A stretch of DNA of 33,966 nucleotides from a virus (taxonomy: Duplodnaviria; Caudoviricetes): IMG/VR virus record IMGVR_UViG_3300032225_000821, positions 1 through 33,966 of that record. One strand, 5' to 3'. Under the pieces are notes generated by a model, which was not told the origin of the DNA, did no database searches, and saw only the letters and a list, made by a program, of their open reading frames with translations. The translations under genes and the position numbers were made by a program. Positions 452 through 31,699 of this stretch are shown here, piece by piece (position 1 is the first letter of the stretch; each line of letters starts with the position of its first letter).

Positions 452-834
452 TCGCCGCCGTAATCCCTCACCCGACGACCGACCCTCTGGCGCATCTGTC
501 CTACTTCGCCTCCGTCGTGATCGCCATGACGCCGATTGCCGGCGGACTGTGGGCCGCCTACCGCCACCACGAAAAGAAGAAGGCTCTCCGGCTCCAGGAT
601 CACACCGACAAGGTGGACGCCTTGCACGACGTGATCGTCGGACGTGAGCCGACCATCGAGAACCCGCACCCGCAGCTCGGAATCTTCCAGCGCCTTGAGC
701 GCATGGAGGCCGACCTTCTTGACCTCAAGGACGGGCTGGAGAACGTCCGCAAGGAGGTCACCCCAAACGGCGGGAACACGAACCGCCTCGGCGACCGAGT
801 CAAGCGCCTCGAGGAGAGGCTCGCCAAGTCGTGA
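448..834 (+). CDS. Membrane protein with coiled coil, holin/lysis accessory candidate
   Basis: One N-terminal hydrophobic helix plus C-terminal coiled coil; ATGA-coupled to the endolysin. Confidence 0.6.
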   Translation: MIAAVIPHPTTDPLAHLSYFASVVIAMTPIAGGLWAAYRHHEKKKALRLQDHTDKVDALHDVIVGREPTIENPHPQLGIFQRLERMEADLLDLKDGLENVRKEVTPNGGNTNRLGDRVKRLEERLAKS

Positions 835-1160: not shown

Positions 1161-1665
1161 CCGCTACCGCACCATCCGAGCCGGCGACCTCGTGCTGGCC
1201 CACGGCACCGGCATCATCTCCAAGATCATCCGCTTCGGCCAATGGCTCCGCCCGTCCTGGCGCCCGTATCGCTACTGGAATCACACCGCCATCGTCGTCG
1301 CCGAACTCGACGGCGTGGTCAAGTGCGTCCAGATGGCCCGACGCTGCGAGATCGTGACCCTCGACGAGGTCGCCCCCGGCGGTCGTGTGCAAGTCCGCTC
1401 CATCCCCGACGGCGTCGATCGCCTCCGGGCCGTGGATTGGGCGCTCCAGCAGGCTCGGGCCGGTCGGCGCTACTCATTCCTCACGATCATCAGCATCGCC
1501 CTCCAGCTCATTACCCCCAAGTGGCTCAACGTGGACTTCCACGAGAATCACCCCGCTCTCATTTGCAGCGCCTTAGTGGCCCGAGCGTGGGAACATGGAG
1601 GCTGGGACTGTCCTAGCGACCCGTTCCAGATCACCCCCGCCGAGCTCGCAAGGATCACCGCATGA
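1153..1665 (+). CDS. Permuted papain-like NlpC/P60 hydrolase (YiiX/YebB-like)
   Basis: GDLVL, WNHTAIV (His) preceding Y-S-F and LICSALVARAW (Cys): circularly permuted catalytic order. Confidence 0.8.
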   Translation: MTDRYRTIRAGDLVLAHGTGIISKIIRFGQWLRPSWRPYRYWNHTAIVVAELDGVVKCVQMARRCEIVTLDEVAPGGRVQVRSIPDGVDRLRAVDWALQQARAGRRYSFLTIISIALQLITPKWLNVDFHENHPALICSALVARAWEHGGWDCPSDPFQITPAELARITA

Positions 1666-4600
1666 CCTACAGAATCGTCGTTCCTGTCGAGGGCTCCGGC
1701 GGATTCATCAACGGCGTCACGGTCGACGCCTGGAAGGTGACCCGGTTTGCCAACACGAACGTCCCCGCCAAGGATGCCTCGCCGCCCTCCGGCTCGCCCG
1801 ATGCTGGCCCGGTCACCACGGCGACCAACGGCGCCCCCGGTCAGGCCGTCCTCGACGTGGAGGCCGGCTACTCCTACAACATCCGAGTGCAGCAAGGCTC
1901 CAACGCCTACTGGACGCAAACCTCCGAGCCCCTCGCCGCCGGCGTCGCCTCCACGGCGCTTCAGTCCTTCCAGGGCCGCACCGCCACCGCCGCCGTCCTG
2001 ACCAAGGCGGACGTGACCGGCACCGGCCTCACCTACTCCGACGTGAACGCCGACATCTCAGGCGCCGCCGCCACCAAGGTCGCCAAGGACTCCCTCGTCT
2101 ACAACGTCCTTGACCACGGGATCGTCTGCGACTCCTCGACTGACAACGCCTCGGCCATCAACGCCCTCATCTCGTCGATGCCATCGGGCAGCACCCTCTA
2201 CTTCCCGCCAGCGCCGGTCGGCACGACCCGCTACTACGGCGTCCGCTCGCCCATCGAGGTCACGAGGCAGATCGTCCTCCGAGGTGATTCACTCGGCACC
2301 GCCTCGGGATCGAGCACCATCGCCACCCGCATCCGAGCCCTGTCGGGATTCACCGGCGGCGCCATCATCCGCAACTTCGCCACGAGCGACTACAAGACCG
2401 TCATCACGCACACCGGCGTTAGCACGACCAACGGCTCCGCCGTCATCAACGACCCGAGCGCCTCATCTCTCAGCACCTACGTCAACGCCCTCGTCACCGG
2501 CACCGGCATCCCGACCGGCTCCTACATCAAGTCCGTCAACACGAGCACCGGGGACATCACCATCTCGCAGGCGGCGACGGCGGACGGCTCCGTATCGGTG
2601 CAGTACGGCGACATCAACGGCAAGGCCTACGCCCCCAACTACGCCCCGTCGCACGTCAACGCCCTCACCATCAAGGACATCACCATCGACCTCGGCCAGG
2701 AGTCGGGCGGCGTGGCCGTGTGCAACAACACCGTCGGCCTCCAGCTCACCGGCATCTACGAGCGCACCGAGATCCGCAACGTCGTCATCCAGAACAACAA
2801 CGCCCCGAACGCTTACGGCAACGTCGCCGTCGGCGTCTACAACTCACTCGGCGGCGGTAGTGCGATCGGGCGCTACATCATGGACCACGTCACGGTCTAC
2901 GGCTACGGCTGGCTCCACGAGCTCGCCCTGGACGGCACCAACGGCGGCACGATCCTCGGCGACATGATGCTGGACTGTGGCGTCACCAACTGGACCACGA
3001 CGCCCGGACCTCCCGATGGCACGACGCACCAGTCCTCCGTGTTCTACGTCAACGCCGTCCGTGGTGCCTACATCGAGGGCCACGCCGAGGCGATCCCGCC
3101 GAACAGCGCCGCCGCAACGTGGGCCTCGAGCACCGCCTACGCCAAGGACGCCCCCATCGTGGTCAACGGCGTCCAGTATTGGGCCACGACCGCCGGCACC
3201 TCGAGCGGCAGCGCCCCGGCGTTCTACGGCACCTGGCAACCGAGCACCGCCTACACCGTGAACACGATCGTCAACAACCTCCTCGGCGCCGCCTCAAGCG
3301 CCATCCTGTTCAAGTGCACCGTGGCCGGGACGAGCGGCTCAACCCCGCCGGCGTGGAGCTACGACACGACCACGACCTTCACCGATGGCGGCGTCACCTG
3401 GCAGCCCGTCGGCGTGTGGACCCTCGGCACGATCACGGACAACACGGTCCGATGGACGCCCAAGACGACCGCCCCCTACGCCGCCCAGCCGTGGGTCGCC
3501 AACACCTACATCCCGACCGACACCTACGGCAACACGACCGTCACCGAGGCCGGCTACCCCAACGTCGTCTACCGATGCACGACCTCGGGCACGACCGGCT
3601 CGTCAAACCCGTCATGGAACCGCACCCTCGGAGCGACCACGACCGACGGCTCCGTCGTCTGGCGTTGCGTCTCCACCGATGCCGGCGACTGCGCCAACGT
3701 GCGCCTCATCGACTGCCCCGACGCCTACGTCCGAGTCCTGTTCAAGACTGACCAATGGGCCGTGGCGACTCGTCCGATCGTGCGAGCGACTCAGACCGCC
3801 ATCTTCAGCACCACCTCAACCGCCTCCGGCACGAACCCGATGTCGTCGCCCAAGCTTGACCATTGCATCCTCTCGCAGCAGCCCGGACGAGGATGGATCG
3901 GCAGCATCGTCGAGGACTACATGGGCGGACTCACCCGTGTCCTCTCCTACGACCCCACGACCTTCAACCCGTCATGGATCACCTACGACGGGATCACCTG
4001 CGAGTACGGCAACGCCAACAACTACAGCCCGTACTATTCGGTCCCGACCGTCATCTCCTACGTCAGCGGCGCCCCTGTGACGCTCGCCGGCGATGTCACG
4101 GGCGCCAGCAACTCCAACACGGTCGGCAAGATTCAAGGCGTCGCCGTCAGCGCTGCCGATGCCACGCTCGTCAGCCAGGGCGACAACGTGAGCACTCAGT
4201 CGTCGCTCGTCTCGAGGACGGCCAACCCCGGCGAGATGACCGTCGTGAACTCAACGAGCGGCGGCACCCTGACCCTCCCGACCGCCCCGACTCAGGGCAC
4301 CCTCAACACGGTCGCCAACAACACGAGCGGGTCGATCACCGTCACCAGCGCCGCCAACACGCTCAGGACGTTCGGCACCGTCGTGACCAACTACACCTTG
4401 GCCGCCAACACGCTCAGCCAATGGCGCTACTCGGGCTCCGTGTGGGTGCTCGTCGCCCTTTCGCCCTCGTCGCCGCTCCTCACGGGCAACAACCTCAGCG
4501 AGCTCACGGCCACGGCCTCGACCGCCAGGACGAACCTCGGCCTCGGCACCGCCGCCACCTCGGCTTCGTCGGACTTCCTCGCCGCTGGCTCCACGGCCTC

Positions 4601-5726
4601 GGGCGATGTCACCGGCACCCTCGGCTCCTCGCTCACGGTCGGCAAGGTGCAAGGCGTGGCGATCACGAGCAACGAGGCCACGCTCGTCACTCAGACGGAC
4701 AACACTTTCACGACCACGAACATCACGACCCGGACGATGAACCTCGGCGAGATGCTCGTCATCAACGGCACCGGCGGCGGAGGAGTCACCGTCACCTTCC
4801 CGAGCAGCCCTGCGACCGGCACCATCAACACGATCGCCAACAACACCTCGAGCACGATCGGCTTGTCGGCGCCTGGTATCACCCTGAGATACCTCACCGG
4901 CCTCGGCAGCTCCTTTACTCAGCCCGCCAACTCGGCGACACGATGGGAATGGTCCGGCGCCGCTTGGGTACTGATCGCCTACTCGCCGACCGCCTACGCT
5001 CCGAGCGGCTCAGCAGGCGGCGACCTGACCGGCACCTACCCGAGCCCGACCCTCGCCGCCGCCTACGCTGGCTCCTCGCCGGTCGGCTCCGCCACCGCCG
5101 TCCCGGTCCTCACGATTGACACCAAGGGCCGGATCACGGCGACCTCGACCGCCGCACCATCCGACACGACCCGAGTGCTCAAGGCCGGCGACACCATGAG
5201 CGGCGCCCTGGCAATGGGATCGAACAAGATCACCGGCCTCGCCGCCGCCAGCGCCAACGGTGACGCCGTCCGCTACGAGCAGATCACGACTCTCAAGGGC
5301 ATCGAGATCGCATCGACCTACTACACCGCCAACGTCTCCAAGACGGTCACCGGCTCCACACTTGCCGCTTTCGACACGACGAACCTCACCGTTTCGTTCA
5401 CCGCTCCGGCCTCCGGGCAGGTGTGGGCCGAGCTCATCGGCGTCATCACGGTCGGCACCGCAGGCACCAACGCCTTCTGGGGAGTCGCCACGCACAACAC
5501 GACGACCGTCCAGGGCTCTCTCACGATGGCTACGCAGACCTCAACGCAGATCAACGGACGAGCGATGATCCTGATCACCGGCCTCACGCCCGGATCGTCG
5601 TATCAGTACGATTGGGTCGGCGCCACCGGCACGACCGGATCGGTCACTCAGACCCTCACGATCCGCTCGCAGACCACGGCGACGGGCGCTGGCGGTCCGG
5701 CCATCATGCGAATCCTTACGGCATGA
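1662..5726 (+). CDS. Tailspike/tail fibre with pectate-lyase-like beta-helix and carbohydrate-binding repeats
   Basis: YNVLDHGIVCDSSTDNASAIN...TLYFP beta-helix entry motif; W-x-x-[S/N]T-x-Y repeats; Ser/Thr/Gly-rich, 1354 aa. Confidence 0.8.
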   Translation: MTYRIVVPVEGSGGFINGVTVDAWKVTRFANTNVPAKDASPPSGSPDAGPVTTATNGAPGQAVLDVEAGYSYNIRVQQGSNAYWTQTSEPLAAGVASTALQSFQGRTATAAVLTKADVTGTGLTYSDVNADISGAAATKVAKDSLVYNVLDHGIVCDSSTDNASAINALISSMPSGSTLYFPPAPVGTTRYYGVRSPIEVTRQIVLRGDSLGTASGSSTIATRIRALSGFTGGAIIRNFATSDYKTVITHTGVSTTNGSAVINDPSASSLSTYVNALVTGTGIPTGSYIKSVNTSTGDITISQAATADGSVSVQYGDINGKAYAPNYAPSHVNALTIKDITIDLGQESGGVAVCNNTVGLQLTGIYERTEIRNVVIQNNNAPNAYGNVAVGVYNSLGGGSAIGRYIMDHVTVYGYGWLHELALDGTNGGTILGDMMLDCGVTNWTTTPGPPDGTTHQSSVFYVNAVRGAYIEGHAEAIPPNSAAATWASSTAYAKDAPIVVNGVQYWATTAGTSSGSAPAFYGTWQPSTAYTVNTIVNNLLGAASSAILFKCTVAGTSGSTPPAWSYDTTTTFTDGGVTWQPVGVWTLGTITDNTVRWTPKTTAPYAAQPWVANTYIPTDTYGNTTVTEAGYPNVVYRCTTSGTTGSSNPSWNRTLGATTTDGSVVWRCVSTDAGDCANVRLIDCPDAYVRVLFKTDQWAVATRPIVRATQTAIFSTTSTASGTNPMSSPKLDHCILSQQPGRGWIGSIVEDYMGGLTRVLSYDPTTFNPSWITYDGITCEYGNANNYSPYYSVPTVISYVSGAPVTLAGDVTGASNSNTVGKIQGVAVSAADATLVSQGDNVSTQSSLVSRTANPGEMTVVNSTSGGTLTLPTAPTQGTLNTVANNTSGSITVTSAANTLRTFGTVVTNYTLAANTLSQWRYSGSVWVLVALSPSSPLLTGNNLSELTATASTARTNLGLGTAATSASSDFLAAGSTASGDVTGTLGSSLTVGKVQGVAITSNEATLVTQTDNTFTTTNITTRTMNLGEMLVINGTGGGGVTVTFPSSPATGTINTIANNTSSTIGLSAPGITLRYLTGLGSSFTQPANSATRWEWSGAAWVLIAYSPTAYAPSGSAGGDLTGTYPSPTLAAAYAGSSPVGSATAVPVLTIDTKGRITATSTAAPSDTTRVLKAGDTMSGALAMGSNKITGLAAASANGDAVRYEQITTLKGIEIASTYYTANVSKTVTGSTLAAFDTTNLTVSFTAPASGQVWAELIGVITVGTAGTNAFWGVATHNTTTVQGSLTMATQTSTQINGRAMILITGLTPGSSYQYDWVGATGTTGSVTQTLTIRSQTTATGAGGPAIMRILTA

Positions 5727-18268: not shown

Positions 18269-18525
18269 CGCCCCACAACTACAACCGCCAGCCTCCGCAG
18301 CCCTGGAAGGCCTCCGACCTACGCTTGAAGGATGCCGAACGGAGCCGCATGAGCGGCGCCCCGATCGTACGCATCTCACCGGAGACGATCGCATTCTTGG
18401 ATCACCTGGTAGCGATGCAGCGCGTCGTCGACGCGGCCCGAGTGATCGCCGAGGATGGACTCCCATCCGACGCCCTCGTGGCCGCCCTCGCCAACCTCGA
18501 CGGCGCCGGAGGCGATGCTGCGTAG
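18265..18525 (+). CDS. Hypothetical protein
   Basis: ATGA overlap. Confidence 0.55.
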   Translation: MTPHNYNRQPPQPWKASDLRLKDAERSRMSGAPIVRISPETIAFLDHLVAMQRVVDAARVIAEDGLPSDALVAALANLDGAGGDAA

Positions 18526-18532
18526 CGGTACG

Positions 18533-19057
18533 GTGGCGAACCTAAGCCACCTCGCCGTCGCCATCATGGCGCAGCTCGTCGTCCTCGTCGGCGGAGTCCC
18601 GAGCGCCGCCGGCGATCCCAAGCCTCAAGTCGTACATCACGTACGACAAGTTGTACCGAACGTGCAGATCACGACGACGACGATGCCGCCGACGACGACC
18701 ACCGAGCCGCCGACGACCCTGCCACCGGAGACGACCACGACGACCGCTCCGCCGCCAGTAGCGCCAGCACCTCAGGCCGACCCGCTCGGGATCGCCGCCG
18801 CCTTCCAGGCCCTCGGCGCCTCGACCTCGGAGGCCGAGACGTTCGTGTGCATCGCATGGCACGAAAGCCGTTTCGATCCGAGCGCGGTGAACCCCAGCAG
18901 CGGAGCCGGCGGTGCTCTACAGTTCCTTCCGAGCACCTGGGCCAACCTTGGACGCCCGGGACTTCCCGAGGACGCGCCGTTATCGGATCAGATCGCCGCA
19001 GCATGGCAGCTCTACCGGAGCCAAGGCTGGAGTCCGTGGGCCGGTAGTTGCGTCTAG
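18533..19057 (+). CDS. Secreted lytic transglycosylase (SLT/Rpf-like)
   Basis: Signal-like N-terminus, Thr/Pro linker, CIAWHES, GAGGALQFLPSTW, QIAAA..LY..QGWSPW; start uncertain. Confidence 0.85.
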   Translation: MANLSHLAVAIMAQLVVLVGGVPSAAGDPKPQVVHHVRQVVPNVQITTTTMPPTTTTEPPTTLPPETTTTTAPPPVAPAPQADPLGIAAAFQALGASTSEAETFVCIAWHESRFDPSAVNPSSGAGGALQFLPSTWANLGRPGLPEDAPLSDQIAAAWQLYRSQGWSPWAGSCV

Positions 19058-19412: not shown

Positions 19413-19811
19413 ATGGCAGGACGACCGACCAAACTGACTCCAGAAATGCAGGCCAAGTTTGTAGCGCACGTCCGGGCCGGCAACTTCATCGAGACGGTCT
19501 GCGCAGCCTGCGGTATCGCGGTCTCCACCTACTACACATGGGCCGAGCGAGCCGAGAATGGCGAGGAGCCCTACGCCGGATTTATGGAGGCTGTACGCAC
19601 CGCCGAGGCCGAGGCCGAGCTGGAGGCCGTCGAGGGCATCCTGACGCACGCCGCCGAGAACTGGAGCGCCTTCTCGTGGTACCTGGAGCGCCGGCATTGG
19701 AAGCGGTGGCGCAAGACGGACAAGGTGGAGCAGGAAGTCACCGTGAAGAAGGAAGGGCCGGAGCCGAGTGAGCTCGACGACGAGATCCGCCGCATCCTCA
19801 ACCGAGACTGA
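19413..19811 (+). CDS. terS: Terminase small subunit
   Basis: MAGRPTKLTPE, HTH, NWSAFSWYLERR; TAGGAT -10 7 nt upstream; precedes terL. Confidence 0.85.
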   Translation: MAGRPTKLTPEMQAKFVAHVRAGNFIETVCAACGIAVSTYYTWAERAENGEEPYAGFMEAVRTAEAEAELEAVEGILTHAAENWSAFSWYLERRHWKRWRKTDKVEQEVTVKKEGPEPSELDDEIRRILNRD

Positions 19812-21153
19812 GTGGGAGAACTGGGACGAGTGGAGCAAGGCCCGACTCCGATGGATCGCCACCGCCCGAGATAATCAGGTCACGCCCCCGGGCGAGTGGC
19901 TCACATGGCTCGTGATGGCCGGTCGTGGATTCGGCAAGACTCGCCTCGGAGCCGAGGACGCCGCCGACTTCGCCCGCAAGAATCCCGGCGCCCGTCTCGC
20001 CTTCGTGGGCCCGACGATCGCCGACACCCGAGACACCATGATCGAGGGCCAGTCGGGCCTCCTAGCGTGCGTCCCCGCCGAGGCCCTCCGTGGTGGCTCC
20101 ATCGCCTCGTCATGGAACCGCTCGATGGGCGAACTGTTCTTTGCCAATGGATGCAAGGTCAAGGCCTTCTCCGCCGAGGAGCCCGAGCGCCTCCGAGGTC
20201 CGCAGCATCATCGGGTATGGGCCGACGAGCTCGGCGCCTGGACCCGAGAGGAGACGTGGGATCAGCTCCAGTTCGGCCTCCGCCTCGGCGAGCGCCCGCA
20301 GGTCGTCGTCACTACGACCCCCAAGCCTTCGCCCCTCATGCGCCGCATCATCGAGGCCGACACGACCCTCATCACCCGAGGCTCAACCTTCGACAACGCC
20401 GCCAACCTCAGCCCCGCCGCCTTGGCCGTACTACGTGACCGCTACGAGGGCACCCGCCTCGGCCGCCAGGAACTGTTCGGCGAGTTCCTCACGGACACCC
20501 CCGGCGCCCTCTGGACCGCCGCCATGCTCGACGAGCACCGAGTCACCGAGGCCCCCGAGATCGTCCGCATCGTCGTCGCCGTCGACCCCGCCGTCACCTC
20601 GGGCGAGGACGCCGACGAGACGGGCATCGTCGCAGTCGGCAAGGGCACCGACGGTCGTGCCTACGTCCTCGCCGACCGCTCCTGCCGTGAGTCGCCGGCA
20701 GGCTGGGCGCACCGGGCCGTCGGACTGTTCCACGAGCTCGGGAGCATCGGCACCATCGTCGGCGAGGCCAACCAGGGCGGCGACCTCATCGAGGCCACGC
20801 TCCGAGCGGTTGACCCCGGCATCCCGTACATCAAGATCAACGCCAAGCAGGGCAAGCGCCTCCGAGCCGAGCCGATCGCCGCCCTCTACGAGCAGGGCCG
20901 AGTCAGCCACGTCGGGCCCGACCTCAAGACGCTCGAGGATCAGATGACCGGCTGGCTCCCCGACTCCGGCTACTCCCCGGACCGCCTCGACGCCCTCGTC
21001 CACGCCATCGCCGAGCTCAAACTGGCGAACGGCTCGCAGGCGGATCGGTACTTCGCCGCTATCGCTCCCCCTTGTCCGTCGTGCGGCGTGCCAAACTTGC
21101 CCGAGGCTACTGAGTGCGCCGCCTGCCGTAAGCCGCTATCCCGAGGAGCATGA
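19768..21153 (+). CDS. terL: Terminase large subunit
   Basis: Walker A AGRGFGKT, Walker B WADE, TTTP, nuclease VDPA...DRLDA. Confidence 0.95.
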   Translation: MSSTTRSAASSTETEWENWDEWSKARLRWIATARDNQVTPPGEWLTWLVMAGRGFGKTRLGAEDAADFARKNPGARLAFVGPTIADTRDTMIEGQSGLLACVPAEALRGGSIASSWNRSMGELFFANGCKVKAFSAEEPERLRGPQHHRVWADELGAWTREETWDQLQFGLRLGERPQVVVTTTPKPSPLMRRIIEADTTLITRGSTFDNAANLSPAALAVLRDRYEGTRLGRQELFGEFLTDTPGALWTAAMLDEHRVTEAPEIVRIVVAVDPAVTSGEDADETGIVAVGKGTDGRAYVLADRSCRESPAGWAHRAVGLFHELGSIGTIVGEANQGGDLIEATLRAVDPGIPYIKINAKQGKRLRAEPIAALYEQGRVSHVGPDLKTLEDQMTGWLPDSGYSPDRLDALVHAIAELKLANGSQADRYFAAIAPPCPSCGVPNLPEATECAACRKPLSRGA

Positions 21154-21154
21154 G

Positions 21155-23047
21155 TTGGGACTTCTAGACCGATTCCGCCGACCCTCAGCCGAGGACATCG
21201 CTGAGGCCGCAGCGGAGCAGGTACTCAAGGCGATCGGCCAGACGCCGATGGCTGGCTCAGGCTACGCCACCGCCGTCCAGCCCTCCTACGCTCCCGGCTC
21301 CGGCGGCCAAGGCCTCTCGCAGACTCCAGGCACGCCGGCGGTCCCGCTCCCTCGCCCGCCCGACGCCTTCGGCTCGCAGCTCGGACCGGCGCAGCCGTTC
21401 ATCCCGGCACCCCTCGACCCTCGTGATCCCGTCTCCGGTCGTGCGCTCCCCCGTAAGGCACAGATGCCGGTGGCGTGGAACCTTGACCTCTCCTCGGACC
21501 GGATGACCCCCTGGACGGTGCTCCGTTCCCTCTCCGACCAATGCGACGTGATCCATCGCTGCATCGAGATCCGCACCGCCGAGGTCACCAGCCTTGAGCG
21601 GGCGCACACCGTCGACGACGTGGCGATCAAGCGGATCATGGTGGAGCAGAACTGCTCCCACGCCAAGGCGCAGGCGATCGCCCGTGAGAAGTACGGCGAC
21701 ATCATCGACGACCTCGACCGATTCTGGGAGAACCCCTACCCGGACGCCGGCGACAAGGGGATCGTGGACTGGCTCACCGAGGCCCTTTGGCAGCACTTCA
21801 CCTACGACGCCATCCCGATCTACCCCCGCCTCAACCTCGGCGGCGACGTGATCGGGTTTGAGATCATCAGCGCCGACACGATCAAGCCACTCCTCGACAA
21901 CCGTGGAGGGACGCCTGCTCCGCCGGCGCCTGCGTTCCAGCAAGTGCTCTGGGGATTCCCTCGTGGCGAGTATCAGGCAAGCCCGCAGGCCGACGCCGAG
22001 ATGTTCACCAGCCCCGGCCAGATGGGCGAGTACGCCAAGGACCAGCTCGCCTACTTCGTCCGCAACCGCCGGACCTGGAGCCCCTACGGATACTCCACCG
22101 TCGAGGAGTGCATCCCGGCGGCGACGCTCTACCTTGAGCGACAGGTTTGGATGCGGACGGAATACACCGAGGGCACGCTCCCTCAGACGTTCATGAAGAC
22201 GGACTCGCAGGAGTACGACCCGGTCAAGATCAACAGCCTCGAGCGCATCCTCAACGATCAGCTCGCCGGCCAGACCTCGGAGCGCCACCGGATCAAGCTC
22301 CTCCCCGGAGGCCTCGACCCCATCTTCCCGCCGATGCTCGAGGAGCGGTACAAGTCCGACTACGACGAGCACCTCATCAAGCAGATCGCTTCCAAGTTCG
22401 GCGTCATGCCGACCCAGCTCGGGATCATCCCCAAGACGGGCCTCGGCGGCAAGGGCCAGATGGAAGGCGAGCAGGACCAGGCCGAGTCAATGTCGCAGCG
22501 CCCGCTCGAAGCATGGCTCACCGATGTCATCAACAACCTCAACCGCCGATTCCTCGGAGCGCCCAAGGACGTGACTTTCACGCTCCGCCAGCCGAACAAC
22601 TCGCAGCAGCAGGTCGAGGAGGCCAAGAGCCTCCAGATCAGCCTCTACTCCGGCCAAAAGACGCTCAACACCGTCCAGGCCGAGCTAGGTCAGCCCCTCT
22701 ACGAGATGCCCGAGGCCGACGAGCCGTTCATTGTCGCCGGCAACCAGGTCATCTTCCTCCGCGGCATGATGAACACGGACGCCGCTGGCGAGACGACGGA
22801 GCAGGTCGGGACCATCGGGGCCGAGCAGCCGGAGCAGCCCGAGCCCGAGGTCGCCGCCGAGGTCAAGGCCTTCCGAGCTTTCACCGCCAAGCGCCTCCGC
22901 ACCCGTCAGGCGTGGCGAGACTTCGACTTCAAGGCTGTGGACGCCGACACCGCCGCCAGCCTCAACGCCGAGGCCCGTGAGCAAGTGGAGGCCAAGCGCC
23001 GCCCTTTAGTCGACAGGTCAGCGATCTCCCAGGGGCGGGCCTACTAG
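21155..23047 (+). CDS. Portal protein
   Basis: Position after terL; DTIKPL, SPYGYS.VE, IASKFGVMPTQLG motifs. Confidence 0.9.
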   Translation: MGLLDRFRRPSAEDIAEAAAEQVLKAIGQTPMAGSGYATAVQPSYAPGSGGQGLSQTPGTPAVPLPRPPDAFGSQLGPAQPFIPAPLDPRDPVSGRALPRKAQMPVAWNLDLSSDRMTPWTVLRSLSDQCDVIHRCIEIRTAEVTSLERAHTVDDVAIKRIMVEQNCSHAKAQAIAREKYGDIIDDLDRFWENPYPDAGDKGIVDWLTEALWQHFTYDAIPIYPRLNLGGDVIGFEIISADTIKPLLDNRGGTPAPPAPAFQQVLWGFPRGEYQASPQADAEMFTSPGQMGEYAKDQLAYFVRNRRTWSPYGYSTVEECIPAATLYLERQVWMRTEYTEGTLPQTFMKTDSQEYDPVKINSLERILNDQLAGQTSERHRIKLLPGGLDPIFPPMLEERYKSDYDEHLIKQIASKFGVMPTQLGIIPKTGLGGKGQMEGEQDQAESMSQRPLEAWLTDVINNLNRRFLGAPKDVTFTLRQPNNSQQQVEEAKSLQISLYSGQKTLNTVQAELGQPLYEMPEADEPFIVAGNQVIFLRGMMNTDAAGETTEQVGTIGAEQPEQPEPEVAAEVKAFRAFTAKRLRTRQAWRDFDFKAVDADTAASLNAEAREQVEAKRRPLVDRSAISQGRAY

Positions 23048-24717
23048 ACCGCATCGCTGAGCACCACGCTCCCGAGATCGCCCGGGCCATCAAGGCCGGC
23101 ATCAGCAACGTCGACGCAGCCGTCCACAACGCCAACGCCGCCTTCATCCGGTGGGACGGTAGCCACCTCGCCAAGGTCATCGAGCAGCTCTACATCGACT
23201 CATGGCTCGCCGGCGCCCACACCGCCCGGGAGCAGGTCACGACCAAGGCAGCGCAGGCGACCTCCGACGCCGTCGGCGCAACCGACTGGAGCTCGTGGAC
23301 GCCCGGCGACATCGGCGCCAGCGATCTCACGATTGACGGCGGACTCCGTGAGATGCTTGACTCCGCCAACGTCACGATCCAAGGCATCGGCGACACCACG
23401 ACCGACCGCATCGGCAACGAGATCGCCCGAGGCCTCGCCGCCGGCGACCCGATCACGAACGTCACCGCCGGCATCACCGACATCCTCGGCGACCCGAACC
23501 GATCGTTCACCATCGCCCAGACCGAGACGAGCCGAGCGATGGTGTCCTCTCAGGCCTCGGAATACCAGGGCCTCGGGTTCTCGCAGTTTGAGTGGCTCGC
23601 CTACGACGGCGCTTGCGACGAGTGCATGGACGAGGAGGACAACAACCCGCACGAGTTCGGCGACGATCAGCCGCCCGGCCACCCGAACTGTCGGTGCAGC
23701 ATCGTCGGCACCGGCGACGTGACGACCCCGGAGGGCGCCCTCGACTGGAACGGGCCCGAGGGCATGGCACCGACCGAGAACGAATCGTTCATCGCCGACA
23801 ACTTCCAGATCATCGACGATGCCATGCGGATCTACCGCACCCGCACCGCCGCCGAGGCCGATCTCACCGCCATCCGAGAGTCCATGCTCAACGACCTCCG
23901 CACCGAGAGGGACGCCGCACGAGCCGACATCGACACCTTCGGCGGAGCGATCCGCAAGCCGGCGAACCTGGAGCGCACGACCGACCCGATCACCGGCGCC
24001 CCGGTCTATCGCAGCACCGAGGGCGGCGAGTACGACTGGTGGTACAAGCTTGACCAGCAGGAGCGCCAGCGCCTCATCCGCAACGGCTACGTTTCCGACG
24101 CTCCCTCGGCCCTCAACGTCGACTCCGCCATCCACGCCGCCGAGCAGAACGGGCGACACTTTGAGAGCCCCGAAGCAGCGGTCGACACCTGGCTCCGGGC
24201 CACCAGAATCAAGGACACCGTCGACACCATTGAGACGAAGAAGTCCCTCCCCTCCTTCGGCGCCCTAGAGCGCCAGATGGGCGGCTTCGACCCCAATGGC
24301 ATCATCGCCAACCCGGTCTACGACGTATCGGACATCTTCGCCTCCAAGACGAACGCCATCGACTACCTCATGTCACTCCGAGCCGATCCCGCCGCCGACG
24401 CCTACGAGCTCGTCGACTCGCAGATCACCGTCCCCTATCACCTCGGCCCGAGCCCGTACGAGATGAGCGCCGAGGACTACGCCACCAAGACCTTCGACCT
24501 CTGGGCGAAGATGGAGGACATCTGGCAGCGCCAAGAAGAAGGCCGCAACACCGAGTTCGGCGCCGTCCTCACGCACGACGACCGAGAGACGATCGAGCTT
24601 TGGAAACACTTCATGCCCGAGGCCCTCGTCCCCGACATCAACGCCGACGTGGACGTATACGAGATCCACGCCGAGATGGTCCAACTAGCCCGGCTCGCCG
24701 GCGTCCTGGAGTCCTAA
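23002..24717 (+). CDS. MuF/SPP1 gp7-like head morphogenesis domain plus C-terminal extension; probably the -1 frameshift extension of the portal
   Basis: IAQTETSRA, W...ACDEC, PPGHPNCRC; frame open from 22981 with no ATG/GTG/TTG until 23353; slippery CCCTTTA at 23002-23008. Confidence 0.75.
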   Translation, partial: PFSRQVSDLPGAGLLDRIAEHHAPEIARAIKAGISNVDAAVHNANAAFIRWDGSHLAKVIEQLYIDSWLAGAHTAREQVTTKAAQATSDAVGATDWSSWTPGDIGASDLTIDGGLREMLDSANVTIQGIGDTTTDRIGNEIARGLAAGDPITNVTAGITDILGDPNRSFTIAQTETSRAMVSSQASEYQGLGFSQFEWLAYDGACDECMDEEDNNPHEFGDDQPPGHPNCRCSIVGTGDVTTPEGALDWNGPEGMAPTENESFIADNFQIIDDAMRIYRTRTAAEADLTAIRESMLNDLRTERDAARADIDTFGGAIRKPANLERTTDPITGAPVYRSTEGGEYDWWYKLDQQERQRLIRNGYVSDAPSALNVDSAIHAAEQNGRHFESPEAAVDTWLRATRIKDTVDTIETKKSLPSFGALERQMGGFDPNGIIANPVYDVSDIFASKTNAIDYLMSLRADPAADAYELVDSQITVPYHLGPSPYEMSAEDYATKTFDLWAKMEDIWQRQEEGRNTEFGAVLTHDDRETIELWKHFMPEALVPDINADVDVYEIHAEMVQLARLAGVLES

Positions 24718-29354: not shown

Positions 29355-29875
29355 CCACCGTCCGCCAGGACACTCGAGCCGCCATCGCCGCCTACCTCGA
29401 CCCCTCCGTCGCCGGCATCGACAACCTCGGCAAGGTGCTCCCGCATCCTGCCAAGTTCTCGCCGGAGGGCATCTTCTACGAGAACACGGACCCCGGCCAC
29501 ACGACCGGCGCCGTCATCTACATCTACCTCCAGCGCCAGTCGGATCGACGGGTCGCCCTCGGCGGAGCGCACAACGGGCGCAAGGTCGTCGAGTTCCAGT
29601 TGGTCCTCGACTGCTTCATCCGCTCCACGAGCCCCAAGGCCGAGGACTGCGGCGAGGCGGCGGATCAGTTCCTCGACCAGCTCGTCACCCGCATCCGAGC
29701 GGACCGCAACGCCGGCGCCCCTGCGGTCATCTTCACATGGGGCGAGGGCACCTTCCCCGGAGGCCGTGACATCGAGGTCGAGGCCCTCTACCCCAAGACG
29801 ATAATGGGCGCCCAAATGGCGACTCAGGTGTACGCTTCTTGCAGGCTCACCGTTCTAGCCATCGAGAACACCTAG
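29351..29875 (+). CDS. Tail terminator/completion protein
   Basis: MTTVRQDTRAAIAAYL...; located before the major tail gene. Confidence 0.65.
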   Translation: MTTVRQDTRAAIAAYLDPSVAGIDNLGKVLPHPAKFSPEGIFYENTDPGHTTGAVIYIYLQRQSDRRVALGGAHNGRKVVEFQLVLDCFIRSTSPKAEDCGEAADQFLDQLVTRIRADRNAGAPAVIFTWGEGTFPGGRDIEVEALYPKTIMGAQMATQVYASCRLTVLAIENT

Positions 29876-29884
29876 AGGACCGAG

Positions 29885-30133
29885 ATGCCCGACTTCACCT
29901 ACATCGGCGACACCCCGATCGACTACATCGTCGTCGGCGTTCCTGGCGCATCGTTCTCCGTCAAGAACGGCGACATCATCTCGCTCGAGGTGGACCCGAA
30001 CACGCCTGACTTCGTGCCCGCCGTCAAGGCCTCCAAGAACGCATCCGCACCGAGCGCCCCGGCCACCGTTTCCGACGTGGCAGGCGGCGATCTAGACCCC
30101 TCTCAGACCACTCCAGCCCCCGAGGAGCAGTAG
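29885..30133 (+). CDS. Hypothetical structural-region protein
   Basis: GAGG RBS; coupled to the major tail gene. Confidence 0.6.
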   Translation: MPDFTYIGDTPIDYIVVGVPGASFSVKNGDIISLEVDPNTPDFVPAVKASKNASAPSAPATVSDVAGGDLDPSQTTPAPEEQ

Positions 30134-31098
30134 TGCCGTACACCTCCGTAAACAGTTTCGTCCAGCTCGGCATCGAGGGGACCTCTGGCACCCTGTCGAG
30201 CAACCTCAAGACGATCCCCGTCTCCTCGCCGCAGGTGACCCCCATGCAGACCTTCCTCCGAGACGAGGCCTTCCGAGGCTCGCCGGCCAAGGTCTACTCG
30301 CAGGTCGCCGGCGTCCGTCACGACGAGTACGACGCCAAGTTCTACGTCTTCCCCGACACCTTCCCGCTCCTCGCCTACTCCATCCTCGGCGTGGACACCG
30401 TGACCGGCACGACGCCCAAGGTTCACACGGTCAAGCTCAAGAACGACGCCACAACCGGCTCGCAGCCTCCGAGCGTCTCCATCATCGACTTTGACGGCCA
30501 GCAGGCTTTCCAGATGCTCGACGCCCAGGCCACCGACCTCAAGCTCAACTTCGGAGCCGAGGCCGCAGTCGAGGCCACGACGAAGTTCATCGCTCAGCCC
30601 TGGAGCGAGGTCGGCACCCCCGGCTCGCTCTCCATCGGCTCCAACACCTTCGTCCCCGGATGGGACTGCGCCCTCAGCATCGGCGGCACCTCGTCGGCGG
30701 TCCTCGTCGACGGTGAGGTCAACATCACTCGCAGCGCCGAGGCGATCTTCACCGCCGGCCAGCAGAACCCGTACAAGACGTGGGCCGGTCCGATCGACGT
30801 GACCGGGCGCCTCAAGTTCGTGGTCGAGTCCACCGACCCGCTCCTCCTCGCCGCCAATGGCTCCATCGCCCTGACGCAGAACACCAAGGCCGTCGTGCTT
30901 ACCTTCACCGAGCCCGTCACGACCTACACCACGGCGATCACCATGAGCCAGGTCCAGTTCCACGACGCCAAGCGCACGAGGGACAAGGCCTACGTTGAGG
31001 TCGACGCCTCCTTCACGGCGCAGGCCAACACGACCGACGCCGCCTCGGGCTACTCGCCCATCAAGATCGTCTCGCAGAACACGGTCTCCTCCTACTAA
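30133..31098 (+). CDS. Major tail tube protein
   Basis: LGIEGTSGT N-terminus; beta-rich 321 aa; precedes the chaperone. Confidence 0.85.
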   Translation: MPYTSVNSFVQLGIEGTSGTLSSNLKTIPVSSPQVTPMQTFLRDEAFRGSPAKVYSQVAGVRHDEYDAKFYVFPDTFPLLAYSILGVDTVTGTTPKVHTVKLKNDATTGSQPPSVSIIDFDGQQAFQMLDAQATDLKLNFGAEAAVEATTKFIAQPWSEVGTPGSLSIGSNTFVPGWDCALSIGGTSSAVLVDGEVNITRSAEAIFTAGQQNPYKTWAGPIDVTGRLKFVVESTDPLLLAANGSIALTQNTKAVVLTFTEPVTTYTTAITMSQVQFHDAKRTRDKAYVEVDASFTAQANTTDAASGYSPIKIVSQNTVSSY

Positions 31099-31514
31099 TG
31101 CGCCACGACCTCCCCGGCGGCTGGGCCGACATCCGAGAGTCCTCCGAGCTCACCGAGCGGCAGGCTCGTCCGGTCCGCAAGGCTTACGCATCCTTCGCCG
31201 GCGCCCTCGCTCGAGCGATCGATCCGAACGCCAACCCGGACACGCTCACCGAGGCCGACCTCATCCGAGCGATCGGGCCGGACTACATCGACGCCCGTGA
31301 CGCCTACCAGGACGCCCTCATCGTCGCCTACGTCGCCGAGTGGTCATGGTCGGAGCCGAGCACCGAGGCCGCCGACGTGCTCCCGATCGCCGTCTACTCC
31401 GCCCTCGTCGAGCTCTGTGAGCAGGCCGACCGAGCCAAGCCCGACCTCGGGCCGGACGGTGCATCGGACCCAAAAGCGCCTACCGGGATCTCAACCGACT
31501 CCGAGCAGCCCTAG
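31098..31514 (+). CDS. Tail assembly chaperone (G)
   Basis: Position; slippery C CCA AAA at 31469-31475. Confidence 0.8.
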   Translation: MRHDLPGGWADIRESSELTERQARPVRKAYASFAGALARAIDPNANPDTLTEADLIRAIGPDYIDARDAYQDALIVAYVAEWSWSEPSTEAADVLPIAVYSALVELCEQADRAKPDLGPDGASDPKAPTGISTDSEQP

Positions 31515-31699
31515 AGGGCCGAGTCTCCGAGCCACCGTCGGCGGACATCGCCGCACGATGGAGGGAGCACCGCTACCGGCGCTTGTACCCGATGACCCAC
31601 GAGCAATACCTGGACGAGCCCGCCGAGGTAATCGACTGGACGCTCGCCCTAGATAGCATGGAGCAGGAGGTGCGGGCCGATGCCGAGCGTGATCGTTAG
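31469..31699 (+). CDS. Tail assembly chaperone -1 frameshift extension (T)
   Basis: -1 frame reads SAYRDLNRLRAALEG...MTHEQYLDEPAEVIDW...DR*. Confidence 0.8.
   Translation, partial: PKSAYRDLNRLRAALEGRVSEPPSADIAARWREHRYRRLYPMTHEQYLDEPAEVIDWTLALDSMEQEVRADAERDR

What the first reader, a model, noticed from the sequence alone, without database searches (positions are those of the whole stretch)
22981..23075. Programmed -1 frameshift fusing the portal to the MuF head protein
Seen: the MuF frame is open for 124 codons (22981-23352) with no ATG/GTG/TTG, reads as protein-like after the shift site, and overlaps the portal end in the -1 frame. In the portal frame the overlap holds a canonical X XXY YYZ heptamer, C CCT TTA (23002-23008). 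GGAGG lies 10 nt upstream (22987-22991), like the dnaX stimulatory SD. A stem TCAGCGAT/ATCGCTGA (23018-23025/23053-23060) follows, with a possible pseudoknot (GGGGCG/CGCTCC). Predicted products: 630-aa portal and ~1187-aa portal-MuF. Known: SPP1 gp7 binds the portal at low copy number. Inference: the frameshift sets MuF stoichiometry within the portal ring. Phage frameshifts are mostly known from tail chaperone, capsid and major tail genes.
Basis: partly seen in the sequence, partly recalled or inferred. Interest (0 to 1): 0.8.

Follow-up and report, generated by a model that had tools for sequence, protein, structure and literature searches.

The report
Two-way frameshift joining portal to MuF
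Near the end of this phage's portal gene sits a slippery sequence that relatives keep at the same spot whether the next head protein (MuF) lies one base out of frame or in frame, so ribosomes likely slip there and make portal subunits both with and without a MuF tail.

Summary
Observation confirmed; the frameshift reading is strongly supported, the proposed stem is not. The portal (21155-23047) overlaps a 578-codon MuF frame in -1 with no ATG/GTG/TTG for 124 codons; C CCT TTA (23002-23008) holds the only TTA among 219 Leu codons of six structural genes. Contigs of three other runs cross the junction without an indel. Of 151 related loci holding both genes (49 junction clusters), all 60 split ones are -1 with a slippery heptamer (CCCTTTA, CCCTTTT, AAAAAAG or CCCAAAA), none +1; 82 of 84 in-frame portal-MuF fusions keep CCCAAAA or CCCTTTA at the same linker, mostly with a -1 stop 6-11 codons on. 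A portal tree needs at least 4 switches of polarity. Cultured Arthrobacter phages Sonali and Mufasa8, annotated as single unbroken genes, carry the site, so it is testable. The GGAGG is plausible; the stem is broken in close relatives. What seems selected is a mix of short and long portal, not necessarily a low MuF count. No product or efficiency was measured. Ten paper searches found no portal-MuF frameshift; this scan noted the same phenomenon earlier in other phage genomes.

The parts
21155..23047 (+). Portal gene, 630 aa (zero-frame product); ends at TAG 12 codons after the shift site
   Evidence: PF04860 E 7e-8 (below Pfam cut-off), phrog_2662 E 1.7e-36 over profile 25-506
22859..23001 (+). 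Small conserved helical domain at the portal C-terminus (W-R-D-F motif), directly before the shift site
   Evidence: Present before the site in split and fused relatives; helices 591-665 in the model of fused relative P0031; no Pfam family at E<0.001
22987..22991 (+). GGAGG, SD-like element 10 nt 5' of the heptamer; likely stimulator
   Evidence: Duplex -9.3 kcal/mol, top 5% of in-phase portal positions; split clusters shifted as a group, p 0.003, clusters not independent; core kept in 4 of 17 split clusters; 9-14 nt spacing per PMC5009743
23002..23008 (+). Slippery heptamer C CCT TTA, predicted -1 shift site
   Evidence: columns invariant in 7 of 7 aligned junctions while flanks vary
23018..23060 (+).
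   Evidence: z +0.9; 1 pair broken in L001, 5 of 8 in L021; no consensus fold over 16 junctions
23008..24717 (+). MuF (SPP1 gp7-like) coding frame entered by the -1 shift, 569 codons; predicted 1187-aa portal-MuF fusion
   Evidence: PF04233 at frame residues 143-241 (about 23407-23703), phrog_2662 profile 534-706; synonymous changes exceed non-synonymous only in this frame in the ATG-less stretch
23353..23355 (+). First ATG of the MuF frame; a possible but unconserved internal start
   Evidence: Weak upstream context; this Met is Leu in L005, L006, L023

Best explanation
A programmed -1 ribosomal frameshift at C CCT TTA likely lets one gene region make two portal subunits: a 630-aa portal when ribosomes stay in frame and a predicted 1187-aa portal-MuF fusion when they slip. 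Shown: the -1 overlap, the heptamer, the absence of a start codon, purifying selection on the ATG-less MuF stretch, and the conservation of a slippery heptamer at this linker across the family in both polarities. Inferred: tandem slippage of peptidyl-tRNA-Pro (CCU to CCC) and tRNA-Leu (UUA to UUU), helped by the rare UUA codon and the GGAGG 10 nt upstream; co-assembly of short and long subunits in one portal ring (12-mer, recalled), which would tether a set number of MuF domains inside the head instead of recruiting free MuF as SPP1 does with gp7. In relatives with in-frame fusions the same slip would hit a stop within a few codons and give the short portal, so the selected trait is likely the mixture of both forms.
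For: (1) 60 of 60 split loci (17 clusters, 44-100% portal identity) are -1 overlaps with an in-phase heptamer 16-55 nt before the portal stop; none is a +1 overlap. (2) The heptamer turns over among four canonical forms: CCCTTTA 7, CCCTTTT 4, AAAAAAG 3, CCCAAAA 3 clusters; the amino acids differ (PL, PF, KK, PK), so protein constraint does not explain it. (3) 82 of 84 in-frame fusion loci keep CCCAAAA (72) or CCCTTTA (10) at the linker; 27 of 32 fused/odd clusters have a -1 stop within 11 codons against 41% background; all 21 clusters with T-K just after the site use ACT (20% of Thr codons elsewhere), which makes TAA in the -1 frame, and others use TGA or TAG. (4) Rare codons: TTA 1 of 219; AAA 0 of 23 and CCA 1 of 43 elsewhere in the Amycolatopsis prophage L178. 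(5) No indel in contigs of runs X2, X3, X4 across the junction. (6) Syn/nonsyn 12/7, 11/7, 18/13 in the MuF frame versus 7/14, 7/15, 9/25 in the portal frame over 100 codons before the ATG. (7) The site lies in a low-confidence linker (665-674, holding P669-K670) between two folded domains of fused relative P0031. (8) Split state needs 4 changes on a portal tree, all forced by starred branches. (9) The same genome has C CCA AAA in its probable tail chaperone gene.
Against: No protein, ribosome or RNA data: frameshifting is not observed. No conserved 3' structure in the window's clade or in the fused clade; across clusters only a mild shift to stronger folding (p 0.003-0.08). SD core absent from 11 of 17 split clusters and most freshwater fused clusters. 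2 of 84 fused loci (L061, L126) have a degenerate site (C ACA AAA), and three more distant cultured portal genes (THSA-485A, MMB025, Strzyga) have no CCC heptamer at the linker, so the switch is not universal. 2 of 17 split clusters have a standard start codon at or just after the site (L159 ATG, L008 GTG) and two more upstream of it. Loci are redundant and related; p-values treat clusters as independent. The tree is the quick search; root and direction untested.
Confidence: 0.88

Rival explanations
1. Assembly or sequencing indel in an in-frame portal-MuF fusion gene.
For: 84 of 151 related loci and many hits are in-frame fusions; phrog_2662 spans both parts. Real assembly breaks occur in the set (L022, L148, L160).
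Against: Contigs of three other runs cross the junction with no gap; 60 loci in 17 clusters share the -1 offset with four different heptamers.
Confidence: 0.01
2. MuF is a separate gene that starts on its own (ATG 23353, a non-canonical codon, or re-initiation at the portal stop) and the heptamer is incidental.
For: PF04233 (143-241) lies after ATG 23353; SPP1 gp7 is a free protein (PMC6316719); L159 has an ATG at the site, and L057/L085 have a separate MuF with its own ATG.
Against: About 115 codons before the ATG are under purifying selection in the MuF frame and conserved from the site on; the Met is not conserved; none of 12 non-canonical candidates has an SD-like context; it does not explain the heptamer in fusions.
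Confidence: 0.05
3. Transcriptional slippage (RNA polymerase adds a base) rather than ribosomal slippage gives the two products.
For: Three clusters have A8-9 G runs and four have CCC T5; Thermus dnaX uses this route (PMC5009743).
Against: CCCTTTA and CCCAAAA, the commonest forms, have no run longer than 4; every site is in X XXY YYZ codon phase; only the -1 frame is used.
Confidence: 0.04
4. In the fused relatives the heptamer is only a by-product of a conserved Pro-Lys dipeptide, so the two-way part is wrong while the split forms do frameshift.
For: P669-K670 and T674-K675 are at least 90% conserved in 53 fused proteins; L061/L126 lost the heptamer.
Against: Synonymous choices are fixed (C CCA AAA, ACT) in genes where these codons are rare; two fused clusters use P-L (CCCTTTA); the dipeptide lies in a low-confidence linker.
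Confidence: 0.08

Closest known systems
-1 frameshift C-terminal extensions of phage structural proteins (T3/T7 gp10, Lactobacillus phage A2 major head and tail, Listeria A118/A500 coat), as summarised in PMC5009743 (passages read)
   Same: One gene, two structural proteins sharing an N-terminus; -1 slip near the 3' end adds a domain to a fraction of subunits; that review notes in-frame alternatives exist.
   Different: Here the carrier is the portal and the extension is MuF, an interior head protein, not a surface Ig-like domain; polarity flips within one family with the site retained.
Lambda gpG/gpGT tail assembly chaperone -1 frameshift (PMC5009743; PMC6316719)
   Same: X XXY YYZ heptamer, downstream frame without its own start, conservation of the slip rather than of the heptamer's letters.
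   Different: Head module, products predicted to be virion parts; this genome has a separate G/GT-type site at 31469.
dnaX tau/gamma -1 frameshift (PMC5009743, passages read)
   Same: SD-like element 9-14 nt upstream; both polarities reported (slip truncates in E. coli, seems to extend in a few bacteria); A AAA AAG occurs in three clusters here.
   Different: No conserved 3' hairpin found here; phage structural gene; CCC-type P-site codon dominates.
SPP1 gp6/gp7 and constitutive portal-MuF fusion genes (PMC5576092; PMC6316719; PMC7302621; GenBank label 'portal and MuF-like fusion protein')
   Same: MuF tied to the portal; gene order portal then MuF; fusions are common in actinophages.
   Different: gp7 binds non-covalently at 1-2 copies; fusions are described as single ORFs with no recoding. 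Here recoding would give both forms.

Membership tests
Bacterial programmed -1 frameshift (X XXY YYZ type) | In-phase slippery heptamer in the overlap of two frames | tested here: met
   C CCT TTA 23002-23008
Bacterial programmed -1 frameshift (X XXY YYZ type) | Site and frame offset conserved in diverged relatives beyond amino-acid constraint | tested here: met
   148 of 151 loci, four heptamer types, rare codons
Bacterial programmed -1 frameshift (X XXY YYZ type) | Downstream frame coding yet without its own start | tested here: met
   124 codons without ATG/GTG/TTG; synonymous excess in the MuF frame; exceptions L159, L008
Bacterial programmed -1 frameshift (X XXY YYZ type) | 5' SD-like stimulator 9-14 nt upstream | tested here: inconclusive
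   Present here; group shift p 0.003 but GGAGG/AGGAG core in 4 of 17 split clusters
Bacterial programmed -1 frameshift (X XXY YYZ type) | 3' stimulatory hairpin or pseudoknot | tested here: not met
   Window stem z +0.9 and unconserved; a 6-bp hairpin is kept only in the CCCTTTT clade. This is a frequent stimulator rather than an obligatory feature (recalled).
Bacterial programmed -1 frameshift (X XXY YYZ type) | Both products made at a reproducible ratio | not testable with these tools
   Needs proteomics or a reporter
Tail assembly chaperone G/GT frameshift | Located between major tail and tape measure genes in chaperone ORFs | tested here: not met
   This site is in the portal gene
MuF1 / SPP1 gp7 family | PF04233 domain downstream of the portal | tested here: met
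   30.1 bits against cut-off 29.6
MuF1 / SPP1 gp7 family | Binds portal and DNA, 1-2 copies per head | not testable with these tools
   Shown for gp7 only (PMC5576092)
MuF polymorphic toxins | C-terminal toxin domain | tested here: not met
   C-terminal 332 aa: no Pfam family above cut-off; function of this extension unknown

The most novel reading that the evidence does not exclude
A reversible recoding switch built into the portal: one slippery site at a fixed linker has been kept from freshwater phages to Streptomyces and Amycolatopsis prophages and cultured Arthrobacter phages while its polarity flipped at least four times, so portal rings are mosaics of short and cargo-bearing subunits; the cargo after the site is exchangeable (MuF in most, another enzyme-like domain in a few), and some genes annotated as plain portal-MuF fusions hide a truncating frameshift.
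Probability: 0.65. Interest if true: 0.85.

Novelty: new variant of a known kind. Interest (0 to 1): 0.72.

Why it matters
The portal is treated as a homo-oligomer made from one ORF, and phage recoding is catalogued for tail chaperones, capsid and tail tube genes. A conserved frameshift that doses MuF onto portal subunits would add the portal to that list, give a handle on the poorly understood MuF family (35% of 1753 tailed phages in PMC5576092), and imply mis-annotation both ways: truncated MuF calls in split genomes and missed short portals in fusion genes. A family with both polarities is a natural experiment on how many MuF copies a portal needs, and two cultured phages make it directly testable.

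Tried and rejected
Assembly indel: rejected. RNAalifold found no consensus structure for 16 junctions of the window's clade or 17 fused junctions; a 6-bp hairpin only in 8 CCCTTTT junctions. Non-canonical starts: 12 candidates, none with SD-like context. Sequencing runs: no RNA holder listed. Pfam on the domain after the site in L057, on the insert in L012, on the MuF C-terminal part and on the tail chaperone ORFs gave nothing above cut-off. The careful tree did not finish; the quick tree was used and no root test was run. The AlphaFold model has pTM 0.38, so only local domain boundaries are used. Paper searches found no portal-MuF frameshift; 'portal' has 0 occurrences in the held first 300,000 characters of PMC5009743, in PMC10885494 and in bioRxiv 10.1101/2025.10.02.679949; 'frameshift' has 0 in PMC5576092. 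PMC10885494 mentions MuF-like genes among its 'false positive' frameshift calls without naming the portal; its supplements were not read and could bear on priority. Subscription journals are not covered. Sequence look-up in the scan's findings returned nothing.
Full report
Setting. The window is a whole 33,966-base contig, 66% G+C, with a tailed-phage head module: small terminase, large terminase (19768-21153), portal (21155-23047), MuF frame (to 24717), protease, probable capsid, and a tail tube at 30133-31098. An actinobacterial host is an inference from relatives in Streptomyces, Amycolatopsis and Mycobacterium records and a transglycosylase-like gene.

Observation. The MuF frame is open from 22981 to 24717, -1 to the portal, with the first ATG/GTG/TTG at 23353. 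C CCT TTA at 23002-23008 is in X XXY YYZ phase, GGAGG lies 10 nt before it, and the 8-bp stem is present. CCCTTTA is unique in the window, and its TTA is the only one among 219 Leu codons of six structural genes; GC3 moves from the portal frame to the MuF frame just after the site. A tandem slip predicts 1187 aa. phrog_2662 matches the portal with profile positions 25-506 and the MuF frame with 534-706, so the two parts are one protein elsewhere.

Not an assembly error. Contigs from runs X2, X3 and X4 (two of them other studies than the possible source run X1) cross the junction with substitutions but no indel there.

Family survey. Four scans gave 183 loci (searches kept the best 80 of 328 and of 184 matches, and many contigs appear twice). 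With the window, 184 entries: 33 lacked a MuF match, mostly truncated, and were dropped; 84 were in-frame fusions; 66 were -1 overlaps; 1 was broken by ambiguous bases. After inspection, 60 are true split junctions, 6 have another arrangement (five with a different domain after the site and a separate MuF; one with a frame break further on) and L160 is broken inside the portal. All 60 split loci carry an in-phase heptamer 16-55 nt before the portal stop: CCCTTTA 27, CCCTTTT 18, AAAAAAG 9, CCCAAAA 6. None is a +1 overlap. Clustering junctions at 80% identity gave 49 clusters: 17 split, 30 fused, 2 other. The background is 25 in-phase heptamers in 31,508 portal codons. MuF-frame conservation begins right after the site with a D/E-x-P-G motif 4-14 codons on in most clusters. 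Over 100 codons before the ATG, changes are mostly synonymous only in the MuF frame. Against: L159 has an ATG at the site, L008 a GTG five codons on, L012 and L150 have starts upstream.

Two polarities. Earlier notes of this scan suggested looking at fused relatives; I tested this on this family. 82 of 84 fused loci keep CCCAAAA (72) or CCCTTTA (10) at the same linker; L061 and L126 have C ACA AAA. The site was picked as the first CCC-type heptamer after portal codon 400, but its position relative to the MuF motif is constant. In 27 of 32 fused or other clusters the -1 frame stops within 11 codons (background 41%); the 21 clusters with T-K after the site all use ACT, 20% of Thr codons elsewhere, which creates TAA in the -1 frame; others reach TGA or TAG. 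In G+C-rich prophages CCA and AAA are otherwise rare (for example 1 of 53 and 1 of 15 in L175). A quick IQ-TREE tree of 52 portals needs 4 changes for the split state, all forced by starred branches; distant rows are fused with CCCAAAA, which hints at a fused ancestor, but the root was not tested and L174 is a long branch. An AlphaFold model of fused relative P0031 (mean pLDDT 66, pTM 0.38) puts P669-K670 in a low-confidence linker, 665-674, between a helical domain (591-665) and MuF (684-923).

Cultured phages. A search of 50,697 phage records gave 9 matches, 5 different portal genes plus duplicates or close kin. Arthrobacter phages Sonali and Mufasa8 have a portal-NUDIX-MuF gene of about 1000 codons annotated as one ORF (the NUDIX label comes); each has C CCA AAA at codon 738/739, GGTGGTGG shortly upstream and a -1 stop 11 codons on, and only one other in-phase heptamer, at codon 2. 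THSA-485A, MMB025 and Strzyga have no CCC heptamer at the linker; Polewnik was not examined.

Stimulators. The GGAGG spacing fits the 9-14 nt given in PMC5009743 (passages read). Its duplex energy is in the top 5% of the gene and split clusters are shifted as a group (p 0.003; fused p 0.02; clusters are related), but a GGAGG/AGGAG core is seen in 4 of 17 split clusters and GGTGG in 2 more. The stem is not supported: z +0.9, broken in L001 and L021, outer pairs kept in 5-8 of 16 junctions and no consensus fold. A 6-bp hairpin is kept in the CCCTTTT clade, and across clusters there is a mild excess of 3' folding. Pausing at the rare UUA codon is my inference.

Mechanism. Most likely a tandem -1 slip gives short and MuF-bearing portal subunits that co-assemble. 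SPP1 gp7 binds the portal, is present at 1-2 copies and is needed for efficient infection but not assembly (PMC5576092, PMC6316719; passages read), so tethering MuF by recoding is a sensible substitute. None of this is measured.

Novelty. -1 extensions of capsid and tail proteins, the G/GT chaperone slip and dnaX with both polarities are known (PMC5009743, passages). Portal-MuF fusions are known as plain genes (PMC7302621, passages). Ten searches and term look-ups in PMC5009743 (first 300,000 of 449,034 characters), PMC10885494, PMC5576092, PMC7911831, PMC10299305 and bioRxiv 10.1101/2025.10.02.679949 (passages only) showed no portal-MuF frameshift; other listed papers were seen as search listings only, supplements were not read, and subscription journals are not covered. 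Eight unchecked notes of this scan describe the same phenomenon in other genomes; they are leads, not evidence. Verdict: real, a new variant of a known kind, interest 0.72.

Noticed in passing
window 31469-31475 in ORF 31098-31514: C CCA AAA in phase near the end of the ORF after the tail tube gene; the -1 frame runs 76 codons to a stop at 31699. Kept in 3 of 3 relatives (L189-L191). Looks like a classical tail chaperone G/GT frameshift by position; no Pfam hit.
   Followed up: partly
L057, L123, L085, L086, L136 (after the CCCAAAA site): The in-frame cargo after the slippery site is not MuF but a domain of about 200 aa that I read by eye as ADP-ribosyltransferase-like (recalled motif; Pfam gave no hit for L057); MuF follows as a separate gene with its own ATG. 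L084 and L146 have an insert and then MuF, all in frame.
   Followed up: partly
L012, L040, L058, L061, L150, L170 and P0002/P0003 (before the site): A mobile insert of about 100-110 aa rich in Trp and Gly sits between the small helical domain and the slippery site in both split and fused relatives; no Pfam family above cut-off.
   Followed up: partly
L184 and L185 (Sonali and Mufasa8 gp3): A NUDIX-like domain lies between the portal core and the slippery site, so even the short product would carry it.
   Followed up: no
window 23719-24714: The MuF frame has a C-terminal extension of about 330 aa after the Cys motif with no Pfam family above cut-off; close relatives share it, many others end after about 250-300 codons.
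   Followed up: partly
window 18455-19057: Transglycosylase-like gene (PF06737, Rpf-type by recall) just upstream of the small terminase.
   Followed up: no
window 1662-5726: A 1354-aa ORF with no Pfam hit and only a short PHROG 'head decoration' match.
   Followed up: no
window 762-768 and 29811-29817: Two further heptamers (CCCAAAC, CCCAAAT) near ends of ORFs; phase and conservation not checked.
   Followed up: no
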